This document shows, in pieces, positions 37,252 through 40,200 of a stretch of 64,000 nt of DNA. The DNA is from Escherichia coli (GTDB lineage: Bacteria > Pseudomonadota > Gammaproteobacteria > Enterobacterales > Enterobacteriaceae), in assembly GCF_030384885.1 (NCBI RefSeq), contig NZ_CP128613.1; one strand, written 5' to 3'. The position numbers were made by a program. Every line of letters begins with the position of its first letter. Position 1 is the stretch's first letter.

Positions 37252-40200
37252 TAATGGGCGGTATTCTGAAACGGCGATTGTCGTGAGAACAGAATGGTTG
37301 CATCAGAATACAGATATAAAAAAACCGACATGACAGTCGGTTTTTTTATTTTTTCCGCCCAAGACTTGGTGGTTCCGGACAGAAATGAAACAGTCCTCAT
37401 CTAGCAAATGGATTATAAGTCAGGATGCCTACATATTCAAACAGCTATGTTGGCGATACAATCCCGACGCTAGTAGTGATACTGCCTCAAGGAATTACCG
37501 CAGTGCGGAAAAGTACTTTTAAGTCCTGGTCAGGATACAGGTGGTGCTGATTCTGGTGCTCTAATTTGGAGAGAGGCAGTCCTCATCTAGCACATGAAGA
37601 AAATCATAGTTACAGGCAACGTAAGGGTAAGCTGTGATTGTCTTTCTCCCTTAAGGGAGCAACGGATGAAAACTTTTCTCGATAAAGTTCTCATCGTTCT
37701 TAAGGCGCTAATCGCGCTGCTGGAACTGATCCGCCAGTTTATTGAATAACTGAGGAAACGTAGCTAAGGCCGAAGGTTTACCACCTTCGGCCTTTAAAAA
37801 AACCGACATGACAGTTGGTTTCAGATTTATTGCCAAAATGCACGCTGTTCATGCCAGATGCGGCGTGAACGCCTTATCCGGCCTACAAAATCTCGAAAAC
37901 TCAATATATTGCACGATCTTCGTAGGCCAGATAAGACTTAGCGCATCAGGCAATCTAACACCTGTCATCACCCCGCAAACTGCCTGAACAGCGCCTTACC
38001 CTTAACCAGTCGCGCACCCAACCAGCCGCCGAAAAGCGACAGCAGCAGTGCACCGCTACAAGGCAGAACAATCCACAATCGCCAGTCTGGCTCCCACGGG
38101 AAATCAAACACTTTTGATTGCAGTACCGCCAGTGCCGTTTCCGCACCAATTGCGGCCACCAGGCCGGAGACAAACCCGAGCATGGCGAACTCACACCACA
38201 ATGTCGTGCGCAGCAGTTTTTTGCCCGCACCGAGAGTGCGCCACACCACCAGCTCCTGATGACGCTGACGCATTCCCACCTGCACCTGTGCCAGCAACAG
38301 CAACATACCGCAGGCGGTGACCAGCACCACCATCACTTCCAGCGCCCGACTTACCTGCTCCAGCACCTGACCGACCTGTTTTAAAATCGCGCCAATGTCT
38401 AACAGGCTAATGGTCGGGAACTGGCGGTTGAGTTGCGTCAACATGCCGTTGCCATTCTCCCAGCGGAAACTGGTAAGCCAGCTCTGCGGCTGCCCGTCTA
38501 ATGCCCCTTCCGGGAAAATAAAATAGAAATTAGGCCGCAGACTTTCCCAGTCCACTTTGCGCAGGCTGGTCACTTTAGCGCGGAACTCCTGGGTATCGCC
38601 CATAAAGGTGACGGTATCGCCGAGGGTAACATTTAAGCGTTTCGCCAGCCCCTCTTCCATCGATACTTCATCGGCTTTTGGCGGCCAGTTACCAGCGACA
38701 ATCGGATTATGATCGGGCCGCGTATTTTGCCAGGTGAGATTGAGTTCGCGGTTGAGCGCCTCATCTTCATTGCCTTCTGTCGGCTTGCCGTTAATCGCCG
38801 TCAGCCGCGCCCGCACCACCGGATAAAACGATTCCGGGACTATCTGATGTTCCGCGAGGAACGCTTTTAGCGGAGTAACCTGTTCTGTGGCGATGTTGAT
38901 TAAAAAGTAGTTAGGACTTTCTGGCGGTAGCTGCTGTTGCCAGCGATCGAGCAGATCGCCACGCAACACCAGCAACAGTGCCAGCAGCATAAAGGAGAGC
39001 GAAAATGCCGAAAGCTGGCTTAACGTTGACCACGGCTGACGTAACAGGCGGCTAACCGCCAGGCGCAGAGGTAGCGATTTCAGCGTCATGCGGCGAAGTA
39101 CATTCAGCAGCATCCAGCCCAGCACACCGCACAGCAAAGCCAGTACTACCGCGCCCGCCAGCACCGCCCAGAGCAGCATACTGCCGCCCATTAATCCGGC
39201 GAGCAGCAGCACAACCACCACACTGACAATCGGCAGATAAAACTTGAGCGGCCAGACGTTCGCGACCACATCATTACGCAATACGCGTAAAGGCTGTGTT
39301 GCCAGCAACAAGCGGTACGGTCGTAGCCCCACCAGCAGCGAGATGACCGTCATGGTGCCAAGCGCCCACAGCCATGGCCAGAGGCTGGCAGGCGGTAGTG
39401 CGGCAGGCAGAACGGGCTTGAGCAGCACCATCAACACGTTTTCGAACAACAGGCCTATCGCCCCGCCGGTAACGGCTGAAAGCGCCAGCACCATCAGCCA
39501 CTGACCGACGATTAGCTTACGCAGTTGCGCTCGCCCAGCCCCCAGCGTTTTGAGGATCGCCACCAGATCGTAGCGACTACGACAGTAATGATTCATCGCC
39601 ACCGCCACCGCTGCCACTGCCAGCAGCAAGGTCAGAAGCGCCGAAAGCAGCAGAAACTGTTGCGAGCGTTCCATCGATCGCCCCAGCGCGCCTTCGTCCT
39701 GTTCCAGACCGTACCAGCGTTGTTCGGGTTTAAGCTGAGGTAACAACCATTTCTCATAGCCGTCGAGCTGGTTCTCGCTGCCGCCGAATTTATAGCGCCA
39801 GGTGACCCGACTCCCCGGCTGCACGGCTCCGGTTTTATCAACATCCGCCAGATTCATCATCAGACGCGGAGCCATCTGGAAGGGGTTAAAACCGGAATCC
39901 GGTTCCTGAATCACTTCTCCGGCAATCCGCAAGGTGGCATCGCCCACGTCAATGGTGTCGCCCGTTTTCAGGTTAAGCAATGCCATCAGGCGTGGGGCCA
40001 GCAATACGCTGCCCGCCTGTGGTTTCAGGCCAGGGGGATTGGTTTGCAGATCGCCATACATCGGGTAGATATCATCCACCGCTTTGACGTTCGCCAGTTG
40101 CGGCGTATCGCCCGCAAAAGTCATCGTGGCGAAAGTCAGCTGCTTGCCGACTTTCAGGCCGCGCTTTTGCGCTTCCTCCAGCCACGCTTGCGGCACTTCG

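What the first reader, a model, noticed from the sequence alone, without database searches (positions are those of the whole stretch)
37255..37967. Candidate type I toxin-antitoxin pair (DinQ/ZorO-like peptide plus antisense sRNA) between mnmH and ybbP
Seen in sequence: a 27-codon ORF (37666-37749, MKTFLDKVLIVLKALIALLELIRQFIE) has a strong SD and is followed by stem-loops. A 20-nt element occurs twice, at 37391-37410 (cagtcctcatctagcaaatg) and 37577-37596 (cagtcctcatctagcacatg). The second copy lies ~70 nt upstream of the ORF start, in its probable leader. The first copy sits just downstream of a near-consensus minus-strand promoter (-35 TTGAAT, 17 bp, -10 TATAAT), and a terminator hairpin (37321-37347) closes a ~90-nt minus-strand transcript. 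That transcript would carry 14-20 nt complementary to the toxin leader. Established knowledge: this is the architecture of trans-pairing type I systems (dinQ/agrB, zorO/orzO), and the peptide resembles DinQ as I recall its sequence (MIDKAIIVLGALIALLELIRFLLQLLN). The zor-orz system is already described in EHEC, so this is likely a homologue at a locus where K-12 instead has rhsD.
Basis: partly seen in the sequence, partly recalled or inferred. Interest (0 to 1): 0.72.

Follow-up and report, generated by a model that had tools for sequence, protein, structure and literature searches.

The report
Second DinQ-type toxin and antisense RNA locus
This intergenic stretch carries an extra copy of a known small membrane-toxin gene (DinQ family) with its own antisense RNA antidote; public genome annotation already names the toxin gene, so it is ordinary rather than new.

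Summary
The main interpretation, a trans-pairing type I toxin-antitoxin with a DinQ-like peptide, is supported. The 27-aa ORF passes NCBIfam's curated DinQ model. The minus-strand RNA passes Rfam's AgrB model. The whole 330-nt mRNA leader aligns with K-12 dinQ and with plasmid dqlB loci.

It is a paralogue, not the canonical dinQ. It lies between mnmH and ybbP, exactly where K-12 has the rhsD island. About 24% of complete E. coli genomes carry it, and these also keep dinQ at arsR-gor. RefSeq already annotates the ORF as "dinQ", and dinQ-like (dql) genes were described in 2016.

- It is not a zor-orz member: the OrzO model fails. However, zorO leaders do share conserved blocks with it.
- It has no LexA box, so the "damage-inducible" label is unsupported for this copy.
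- It has a single Agr gene.
- Its antisense pairing is the shortest in the family sample: 14-15 Watson-Crick bp, against about 30 for dinQ/agrB.
- About 14% of carrier genomes probably have a 108-bp deletion that removes the target site, SD and start codon; this was verified in one genome.

Novelty is low. The value lies in annotation refinements.

The parts
37316..37405 (-). Agr-type antisense sRNA gene (antitoxin), about 89-90 nt. The 5' end GCUAGAUGAGGACUG pairs with the toxin leader.
   Evidence: Rfam AgrB RF02891 scores 51.9 bits (GA 40) at 37404..37316, model positions 1-84/84. The transcription start follows from the -10 spacing and from homology to the K-12 agrA/agrB starts. The fold has two 5' stem-loops plus a terminator hairpin, -31.2 kcal/mol.
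37412..37440 (-). Sigma-70 promoter of the Agr-type sRNA: -35 TTGAAT, 17-bp spacer, -10 TATAAT.
   Evidence: It matches 10/12 consensus positions and is the only promoter-like hit in 37200-38000.
37316..37349 (.). Bidirectional intrinsic terminator (14-bp stem, 6-nt loop, T-runs on both strands). It is predicted to end both mnmH (+) and the Agr sRNA (-).
   Evidence: I2. The stem is homologous to the K-12 agrA/agrB terminator.
37457..37462 (+). Predicted -10 (TACAAT) of the toxin mRNA promoter. The -35 is poor, and no LexA operator overlaps it.
   Evidence: It aligns with the K-12 dinQ -10 TATGAT and the plasmid dql -10 TATAAT. The consensus scan did not call it. There is no CTG-N10-CAG anywhere in 37255-37967.
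37469..37797 (+). Predicted primary toxin mRNA, about 329 nt with a 197-nt 5' UTR (K-12 dinQ: 331 nt).
   Evidence: The +1 at G37469 is inferred by homology to the mapped K-12 +1. The end is set by the terminator.
37469..37488 (+). 5' 'lock' of the primary transcript. GCUAG (37469-73; element a) and ACUGCCUC (37481-88; sequence 1) pair with CUAGC (37587-91) and GAGGCAGU (37573-80), occluding the antisense target.
   Evidence: MFE structure of 37469-37797. The a/a' pair co-varies with K-12: GUUAG:CUAAC becomes GCUAG:CUAGC. Coordinates were checked.
37521..37547 (+). Start of the conserved leader core (AAGTCCTGG...ACAGGTGGTGC). The K-12 +44 processing site lies just upstream of the equivalent block, so the active processed mRNA is predicted to start near 37513-37520.
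   Evidence: These columns are invariant across 6 loci and across dql and zorO leaders. The position of K-12 +44 comes and PMC5066626.
37568..37591 (+). Antisense target site. The core CAGTCCTCATCTAGC (37577-91) gives 14-15 Watson-Crick bp with the Agr 5' end. A G-U-rich extension runs over GGAGAGAGG (sequence 2).
   Evidence: The duplex is -45.5 kcal/mol against -23.5 +/- 2.8 for 500 shuffles. The site lies at -89 from the start codon, as in all family members, which range from -87 to -98.
37636..37659 (+). Sequence 3 (GAUUGUCUUUCUCC) and the SD hairpin CUCCC-UUAA-GGGAG (sequences 3:4). Sequence 3 can pair either with sequence 2 or with the SD.
   Evidence: Predicted folds of the truncated mRNA and of the target-blocked mRNA. 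There is compensatory change relative to K-12: CUCCAU:AUGGAG against CUCCC:GGGAG.
37666..37749 (+). Toxin ORF, 27 aa, DinQ family (MKTFLDKVLIVLKALIALLELIRQFIE).
   Evidence: NCBIfam NF041472 scores 40.9 bits (cutoff 30). It shares 15/19 identities with the K-12 DinQ core. RefSeq has a CDS 'dinQ', WP_349808740.1, in the identical strain. The closest foreign relative is the Photorhabdus khanii peptide, 24/27 identical.
37766..37797 (+). Toxin mRNA terminator hairpin (12-bp stem, 5-nt loop) followed by a short U tract.
   Evidence: I5. It aligns with the dinQ and dql terminators.
37795..37821 (.). Second, slightly degenerate copy (26/27) of the Agr terminator sequence. Together with 37317-37343 it brackets the module. 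Its origin is unclear.
   Evidence: D2. The plasmid dql loci lack it.

Best explanation
This is a chromosomal paralogue of the dinQ/agrB type I toxin-antitoxin system. It is a dinQ-like (dql) locus in the variable mnmH-ybbP intergenic region.

Shown by sequence and family tests:
- A 27-aa DinQ-family hydrophobic peptide gene sits on the + strand.
- A divergent, roughly 90-nt AgrB-family sRNA gene sits on the - strand, with a near-consensus promoter.
- The 5' end of that sRNA is complementary to the toxin 5' UTR about 89 nt upstream of the start codon.

Inferred by homology to the experimentally studied K-12 dinQ/agrB and pOXA-48 dqlB/agrB systems:
1. The primary mRNA starts at about 37469 and is translationally inert. 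Its 5' end pairs with the target region, and the SD sits in a small hairpin.
2. 5' processing near 37513-37520 frees sequence 2. Sequence 2 then pairs with sequence 3 and opens the SD, allowing synthesis of a membrane-inserting toxic peptide.
3. The constitutive Agr sRNA pairs with 37577-37591 and its extension. This sequesters sequence 2, lets the SD hairpin re-form, and probably triggers RNase III cleavage.

Unlike canonical dinQ, this copy has no LexA operator, so SOS induction is not expected. It has one Agr gene rather than two. Its Agr/target sequence differs from the canonical pair, which should make the two systems largely orthogonal.
For: Family membership:
- NCBIfam DinQ scores 40.9 bits, above the cutoff of 30.
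- Rfam AgrB scores 51.9 bits, above the gathering score of 40.
- RefSeq annotates the ORF as dinQ in an identical genome and in many others.

Architecture:
- The locus is colinear with K-12 dinQ-agrA and with four plasmid dql loci. The -10, the leader blocks, SD, ORF and terminator all align.

Pairing:
- The 16-nt core is unique to the two sites in the window.
- The duplex is -45.5 kcal/mol against -23.5 +/- 2.8 for shuffles.
- Of 21 Agr copies in 16 family loci, 16 prefer their own leader. Fifteen of the 16 loci have at least one such copy. The target sequence itself differs from locus to locus, so sRNA and target co-vary.

Structural switch:
- In silico SD accessibility is 0.18 (full length), 0.28-0.30 (truncated) and 0.17-0.18 (target blocked). 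This is the same direction as K-12 dinQ run through the same script: 0.08, 0.22, 0.02.
- There are compensatory changes in a/a', 2:3 and 3:4 relative to K-12.

Mechanism precedent:
- PMC3567139 and PMC5066626 for dinQ/agrB.
- PMC12365149 for dqlB/agrB, covering toxicity, rescue and compensatory mutations.

Paralogue status:
- The canonical locus is present in 5422/5426 genomes.
- The source genome has two matching places (H73).
- The locus is syntenic at 95.8% identity in Escherichia sp. E1V33.
Against: - There are no expression or toxicity data for this locus.
- The antisense pairing is the weakest cognate pair of the 15 loci whose own leader ranks first (-36.6 kcal/mol for the 5' 30 nt; best non-cognate -35.5).
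- Over the 31-nt region, 20 positions are Watson-Crick and 4 are G-U. K-12 agrB has 30/31. K-12 agrA has 25/31, and agrA is reported not to protect against DinQ (PMC3567139).
- The toxin promoter has a good -10 but a poor -35, and the consensus scan did not call it.
- The predicted change in SD accessibility is small.
- About 183 of about 1313 carrier genomes appear to have lost the target site, SD and start codon through a 108-bp deletion. This allele was verified in one genome. Selection for an intact toxin is therefore not universal.
Confidence: 0.8

Rival explanations
1. The locus is a decaying or silenced remnant of a dql/agr module. The toxin is no longer expressed or no longer controlled by the sRNA. 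The Agr RNA is an orphan, or has acquired other targets.
For: - It has the shortest and weakest cognate pairing in the family sample.
- The extended part of the duplex has diverged on both sides.
- The toxin promoter has a weak -35.
- A 108-bp deletion allele removes the target, SD and start codon but keeps the sRNA gene.
- Independent toxin-less or disrupted relatives exist elsewhere, such as Xenorhabdus beddingii L060 and Salmonella diarizonae L071.
Against: - In about 1130 genomes the promoter, the leader blocks, the SD hairpin, an intact ORF, the terminator and the perfect 16-nt core are all retained at 98% identity or more.
- The core is identical in both copies in all alleles examined.
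- The locus is conserved in synteny in a cryptic Escherichia species.
- Pairings of 14-19 bp are in the range I recall for other trans-acting type I antitoxins (OrzO, IstR-1, OhsC). That figure comes from memory of the literature and was not tested here.
Confidence: 0.15
2. It is a member of the zor-orz family.
For: - zorO leaders share conserved blocks and spacing with this leader, at 56-58% identity over about 150 nt.
- OrzO sits in the equivalent divergent position and pairs at the equivalent leader site.
- PMC11264685 noted 71-74% similarity between a plasmid dinQ 5' UTR and a zor 5' UTR segment.
Against: - OrzO-P Rfam scores are 19.5-22.5 bits against a gathering score of 60, while AgrB passes.
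- The peptide hits only DinQ and DqlB models at E <= 10.
- The peptide is unlike ZorO, MDTLTQKLTVLIAVLELLVALLRLIDLLK.
- O157:H7 genomes give only the canonical dinQ match.
Confidence: 0.03
3. The real product is the 51-aa ORF (37594-37749) that RefSeq annotates in some genomes, not the 27-aa peptide.
For: - It is the longest ORF in that frame.
- It is annotated as a 51-aa 'dinQ' in O145:H28 RM13516 and many other records.
Against: - No SD precedes ATG 37594, which lies inside the antisense target.
- The N-terminal 24 residues are not conserved in any relative, and in relatives the frame upstream of the conserved start holds unrelated residues.
- The conserved SD and CGG(A/G)TG start context aligns with the mapped DinQ start.
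- PMC5066626 states that Dql peptides are often mis-annotated with a longer N-terminus.
Confidence: 0.02

Closest known systems
dinQ/agrAB of E. coli K-12 (arsR-gor intergenic region; Weel-Sneve 2013, Kristiansen 2016)
   Same: - A 27-aa single-helix peptide with the same core (IVLxALIALLELIR).
- A divergent AgrB-family sRNA whose 5' end pairs with the 5' UTR about 90 nt before the start codon.
- An mRNA of about 330 nt with the same leader blocks.
- A 5' 'lock', alternative 1:2 / 2:3 / 3:4 pairings and an SD hairpin.
- A homologous sRNA terminator.
   Different: - A different chromosomal site (mnmH-ybbP).
- No LexA operator.
- One Agr gene instead of two.
- The target/antisense core differs at 4 of 15 positions, matched on both partners.
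- Pairing is about 15 Watson-Crick bp plus a wobble extension, instead of 30/31.
- The peptide has 3 extra N-terminal residues and a shorter, DqlB-like C-terminus (ELIRQFIE).
dql (dinQ-like) genes, dqlA/dqlB, of Enterobacteriaceae chromosomes and plasmids (Kristiansen 2016; DqlB/agrB of pOXA-48 validated in PMC12365149)
   Same: - It fits the published description: a homologue of dinQ with a similar 5' UTR and signature residues, present together with dinQ in some strains, and often annotated with a longer N-terminus.
- It has the same module layout as plasmid dqlB loci.
- Its nearest relatives are chromosomal peptides of Photorhabdus, Hafnia, Cedecea, Citrobacter and Buttiauxella with M-x-x-F-[IL]-D-K...VLKA...LLELIR.
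   Different: - It fails the DqlB model (24.5 bits, below the cutoff of 35) and lacks the 4-residue DqlB insertion.
- Whether it is one of the published 'dqlA' sequences could not be checked, because the figure and supplement are not held.
zorO/orzO (and zorP/orzP) type I system
   Same: - A small hydrophobic toxin, a long processed 5' UTR and a divergent non-overlapping sRNA that pairs in the UTR.
- Leaders share conserved blocks (AAGTCCTGG, ACxGGTGGTGC, GGAG, GACAGG, GTAAGGGTAAG, CGGATG) at the same spacing.
   Different: The peptide family and the sRNA family are different, and OrzO-P fails on this sRNA.

Membership tests
DinQ/AgrB type I toxin-antitoxin family | The toxin peptide matches the curated DinQ profile. 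| tested here: met
   NF041472 toxin_DinQ scores 40.9 bits against a cutoff of 30, covering profile positions 1-22/22. BLASTP gives 15/19 identities to K-12 DinQ.
DinQ/AgrB type I toxin-antitoxin family | An AgrB-type sRNA is encoded divergently, upstream of the toxin mRNA and not overlapping it. | tested here: met
   Rfam RF02891 scores 51.9 bits against GA 40 at 37404..37316 (-), full-length. It has its own near-consensus promoter and terminator. The geometry matches K-12 and four plasmid loci.
DinQ/AgrB type I toxin-antitoxin family | The 5' end of the sRNA is complementary to the toxin 5' UTR upstream of the SD. | tested here: met
   There are 14-15 contiguous Watson-Crick bp, extended by G-U pairs. 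The duplex z-score is about -7.8 against shuffles. The site lies at -89, within the family range of -87 to -98. The pairing is shorter than in all other cognate pairs sampled.
DinQ/AgrB type I toxin-antitoxin family | The leader has four elements that form mutually exclusive structures controlling SD access. | tested here: inconclusive
   The elements are identifiable and carry compensatory changes. The predicted folds switch in the expected direction. The predicted effect is small and there are no probing data.
DinQ/AgrB type I toxin-antitoxin family | The peptide is toxic when over-expressed and the sRNA rescues the cell. | not testable with these tools
   This needs an experiment. Precedents exist for dinQ (PMC3567139) and dqlB (PMC12365149).
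Canonical dinQ (SOS regulon gene, 'damage-inducible') | A LexA operator overlaps the promoter. | tested here: not met
   There is no CTG-N10-CAG in 37255-37967. Only three sites have one mismatch in the CTG/CAG triplets, and none is at the -10/+1 position. The K-12 box CTGTATGATTATCCAG is found by the same script.
Canonical dinQ (SOS regulon gene, 'damage-inducible') | [quoted passage not shown] | tested here: not met
   It lies between mnmH and ybbP. The canonical locus is present separately in 5422/5426 genomes, and there is a second matching place in the source genome (H73).
DqlB | The peptide matches the curated DqlB profile. | tested here: not met
   NF041473 scores 24.5 bits against a cutoff of 35. 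The DqlB-specific insertion is absent.
Zor/Orz | An OrzO/OrzP-type sRNA and a ZorO-type peptide. | tested here: not met
   RF02083 scores 22.5 and 19.5 bits against GA 60. No ZorO-like model is hit at E <= 10. The ZorO sequence from L092 is unlike this peptide.

The most novel reading that the evidence does not exclude
The mnmH-ybbP copy is a LexA-independent, orthogonally controlled DinQ-family module. Its antitoxin pairing has been pared down to about 15 bp. In addition, dinQ/agrB, dql/agr and zor/orz all descend from one ancestral module. Their mRNA leaders are homologous from the processing site to the start codon, and only the toxin ORF, the sRNA body and the roughly 15-nt recognition sequence have diversified.
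Probability: 0.5. Interest if true: 0.35.

Novelty: already known. Interest (0 to 1): 0.18.

Why it matters
Mostly this matters for annotation.

- The toxin gene is already called in RefSeq, but under a name ("damage-inducible DinQ") that implies SOS control, and this copy probably lacks it.
- The gene length is annotated inconsistently, as 27 aa in some records and 51 aa in others.
- The antitoxin sRNA is not annotated in the four RefSeq records examined.

Strains carrying both dinQ and this paralogue have two related membrane toxins with different predicted control sequences. That is relevant to studies of persistence and membrane depolarisation that use non-K-12 strains.

The side observation that zorO and dinQ/dql leaders align block by block would, if confirmed, merge two type I families that the literature treats as separate.

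Tried and rejected
- REP-like origin of the 20-nt repeat. Rejected: the core occurs only twice in the window, and the REP/BIME copies lie elsewhere.
- LexA regulation. I looked for CTG-N10-CAG and for one-mismatch variants. None lies at the promoter.
- Remnant of the locus in K-12. None exists: homology stops at the mnmH stop codon and resumes 5 nt before the ybbP stop codon.
- Whole-RNA duplex folding of the sRNA against the mRNA. It gave inflated long duplexes because the two genes are partial direct repeats. I replaced it with analyses of the 5' 30-36 nt.
- Within-E. coli covariation. It is uninformative, because alleles are at least 97.5% identical and the core is invariant.
- The 27-nt second terminator copy as a general family feature. 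It is not found in the plasmid loci.
- Literature linking dinQ to mnmH, ybbP or selU. None is in the held library. The supplement of Kristiansen 2016 is not held, so identity with a published dqlA sequence could not be confirmed.
- The genome-wide motif scan. It also returned about 45 chance hits in high-GC and other unrelated genomes that have no small ORF or Agr, and I discarded these.
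Full report
**What is in the sequence**

The 713-bp interval lies between the stop codon of mnmH (37254) and the stop codon of ybbP (37968, minus strand).

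- The 27-codon ORF at 37666-37749 has an AGGGAG Shine-Dalgarno 6 nt upstream.
- The 20-nt direct repeat is 19/20 identical. Its 16-nt core CAGTCCTCATCTAGCA occurs only at these two places in the 64-kb window, even with two mismatches allowed. No matches were expected by chance.
- The minus-strand promoter TTGAAT-17-TATAAT lies at 37440..37412. It is the only promoter-like site in the region.
- A 14-bp hairpin at 37316-37349 has T-runs on both strands.
- The ORF is followed by a 12-bp terminator hairpin at 37766-37794.

**What it is**

- The peptide passes NCBIfam's curated model for the type I toxin DinQ (40.9 bits, cutoff 30). It fails the model for DqlB (24.5 bits, cutoff 35).
- The minus-strand transcript matches Rfam AgrB over the whole model (51.9 bits, gathering 40). 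It scores only about 20 bits against OrzO-P, whose gathering score is 60.
- The interval aligns colinearly with the dinQ-agrA part of the K-12 arsR-gor region. It also aligns with four plasmid dinQ-like loci through the -10, the leader, the SD, the ORF and the terminator.
- Each of those loci has an AgrB-model hit in the same divergent position.
- RefSeq already annotates the ORF as "damage-inducible type I toxin DinQ" in a 100%-identical genome, strain 2013C-4282.
- The peptide is recorded under that name on at least 1000 contigs, in a 27-aa form and a 51-aa form.
- No ncRNA feature is annotated for the sRNA in any of the four records examined.

**Paralogue, not orthologue**

- The canonical arsR-gor locus is found in 5422 of 5426 complete E. 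coli genomes.
- The mnmH-ybbP locus covers at least 80% of the query in 1313 of those genomes.
- Carrier genomes, including the source genome, show two matching places.
- In K-12, homology stops at the mnmH stop codon and resumes 5 nt before the ybbP stop codon. The 7.3-kb rhsD island lies in between.
- The same mnmH-dql-ybbP arrangement is present at 95.8% identity in the cryptic species Escherichia sp. E1V33.
- Kristiansen et al. 2016 (PMC5066626) defined "dql" (dinQ-like) genes on chromosomes and plasmids. They noted that some strains carry them together with dinQ and that they are often annotated with an over-long N-terminus. This locus fits that description.
- A scan of species-representative genomes places the peptide in a subgroup (M-x-x-F-[IL]-D-K...VLKA...LLELIR) shared with Photorhabdus, Hafnia, Cedecea, Citrobacter and Buttiauxella.
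- The closest relative is a Photorhabdus khanii peptide, 24/27 identical, with 77% nucleotide identity over 281 nt.

**How it most likely works**

The family alignment places the toxin -10 at TACAAT (37457-37462) and +1 at G37469. This gives a 329-nt mRNA, against 331 nt in K-12, whose published coordinates I reproduced exactly.

1. In the predicted fold of the primary transcript, the 5' end pairs with the antisense target region. GCUAG pairs with CUAGC, and ACUGCCUC pairs with GAGGCAGU. The SD sits in a CUCCC-UUAA-GGGAG hairpin.
2. Removing the first 25-70 nt lets GGAGAGAGGCAGUC pair with GAUUGUCUUUCUCC instead.
3. Blocking the target, as sRNA binding would, restores the SD hairpin.

Mean SD accessibility goes from 0.18 to about 0.29 and back to about 0.18. 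K-12 dinQ run through the same script gives 0.08, 0.22 and 0.02.

The a/a', 2:3 and 3:4 pairings carry compensatory substitutions relative to K-12.

These steps are inferred by homology with dinQ/agrB (PMC3567139, PMC5066626). They also draw on the experimentally validated DqlB/agrB module of pOXA-48, where compensatory mutations proved that pairing is required (PMC12365149).

**Evidence that the sRNA-target pairing matters**

I examined 21 Agr copies in 16 family loci. Sixteen of the copies prefer their own leader over the 15 others, and 15 of the 16 loci have at least one such copy. The recognition sequence itself differs from locus to locus, but it always lies 87-98 nt before the start codon in the six loci measured. 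Extra Agr copies that have lost complementarity also exist, like K-12 agrA (L009, L028).

**Caveats**

- This locus has the weakest cognate pairing among the 15 loci whose own leader ranks first: -36.6 kcal/mol for the 5' 30 nt, with the best non-cognate at -35.5.
- There are only 14-15 contiguous Watson-Crick pairs.
- Over the 31-nt region, 20 positions are Watson-Crick and 4 are G-U. agrB has 30/31. agrA has 25/31 and is reported to be non-protective.
- The toxin promoter has a poor -35.
- No CTG-N10-CAG LexA box exists anywhere in the interval, whereas the same script finds the K-12 box. The "damage-inducible" label is therefore probably wrong for this copy.
- About 183 of the roughly 1313 carriers fall below 80% coverage of the core query. 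The one I examined has a 108-bp deletion (37578-37685) between AGTCCTCATC and AGTTCTCATC. It removes the target site, the SD and the first codons but keeps the sRNA gene.

**Comparison with zor-orz**

However, the motif scan unexpectedly retrieved zorO loci.

- The exact ZorO peptide sits next to an OrzO-P hit of 87.6 bits.
- zorO leaders share the conserved blocks and spacing of dinQ/dql leaders, at 56-58% identity to this one.
- OrzO sits 104 nt from the motif, against 116 nt here, and pairs at the equivalent leader position.
- A 2024 paper remarked on a similar resemblance and stated that no relationship had been proposed (PMC11264685).

**Verdict**

The feature belongs to a known and already annotated family, so novelty and interest are low. 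What remains useful is the following:

- the unannotated sRNA;
- the missing LexA box;
- the 27-aa versus 51-aa annotation conflict;
- the minimal pairing;
- the toxin-deleted alleles;
- the leader homology with zorO.

Noticed in passing
L092 (Escherichia sp. E1V33), L049 (E. whittamii), L069, L013, L020, L055, L056; compare window 37521-37668: zorO-type loci were retrieved by a motif taken from the dinQ/dql leader. Their 5' UTRs share the same conserved blocks at the same spacing. OrzO lies in the equivalent divergent position and pairs at the equivalent site. This suggests that zor/orz and dinQ/agrB share a common ancestor.
   Followed up: partly
window 37795-37821 (versus 37317-37343): A 26/27-identical second copy of the Agr terminator sequence lies immediately after the toxin terminator, so the agr-dql module is bracketed by direct repeats 478 bp apart. 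It may be a relic of another agr copy or a recombination joint. It is absent from the plasmid dql loci.
   Followed up: partly
L004 (E. coli MMC-J-0066), equivalent to window 37578-37685: A natural 108-bp deletion between 10-nt microhomologies removes the antisense target, the SD and the first 7 codons (the deletion ends within codon 7) but leaves the Agr gene and promoter. About 183 of about 1313 carrier genomes have a similarly reduced match.
   Followed up: partly
window 37840-37950: There is a pair of REP elements (a BIME), with sub-threshold hits to naRNA4/CssrE and ES036. They account for the roughly 136,000 megablast places of the original 713-bp query.
   Followed up: yes
window 37594-37749; L005 845-1000: RefSeq annotates the same gene as 27 aa in some genomes and as 51 aa in others, and it is called 'damage-inducible' even though no LexA box is present. 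In the four RefSeq records examined, the sRNA is not annotated.
   Followed up: yes
window 37257-37961 versus L003 3838-11130 (K-12): The mnmH-ybbP interval is a replacement hotspot. K-12 carries the 7.3-kb rhsD-ybbC-ylbH-ybbD-ylbI-ylbG island with breakpoints essentially at the two stop codons, and no trace of the dql module remains.
   Followed up: yes
L028 5373-5690 (Hafnia paralvei); L009 257-590: These loci have tandem arrays of three and two AgrB-type genes upstream of one toxin gene. Only one copy in each array has its own leader as best partner, which parallels K-12 agrA/agrB.
   Followed up: partly
L060 (Xenorhabdus beddingii); L071 (Salmonella enterica subsp. diarizonae): In L060 the conserved leader is joined directly to the 3' UTR and terminator, so the toxin ORF is deleted. 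In L071 a DqlB-like ORF appears to be disrupted after about 17 residues. Both look like independent cases of toxin loss.
   Followed up: no
L014, L015 (Haemophilus sputorum assembly); L033, L077 (Lachnospiraceae MAGs); L070 (Chryseobacterium assembly); L030: Enterobacterial dinQ and dqlB loci appear on short contigs of assemblies labelled as unrelated taxa. These are probably plasmid carry-over or contamination.
   Followed up: no
L052 5733-5871 (Photorhabdus khanii): A group II intron domain hit (103 bits) lies about 500 bp from the closest foreign relative of this dql module.
   Followed up: no
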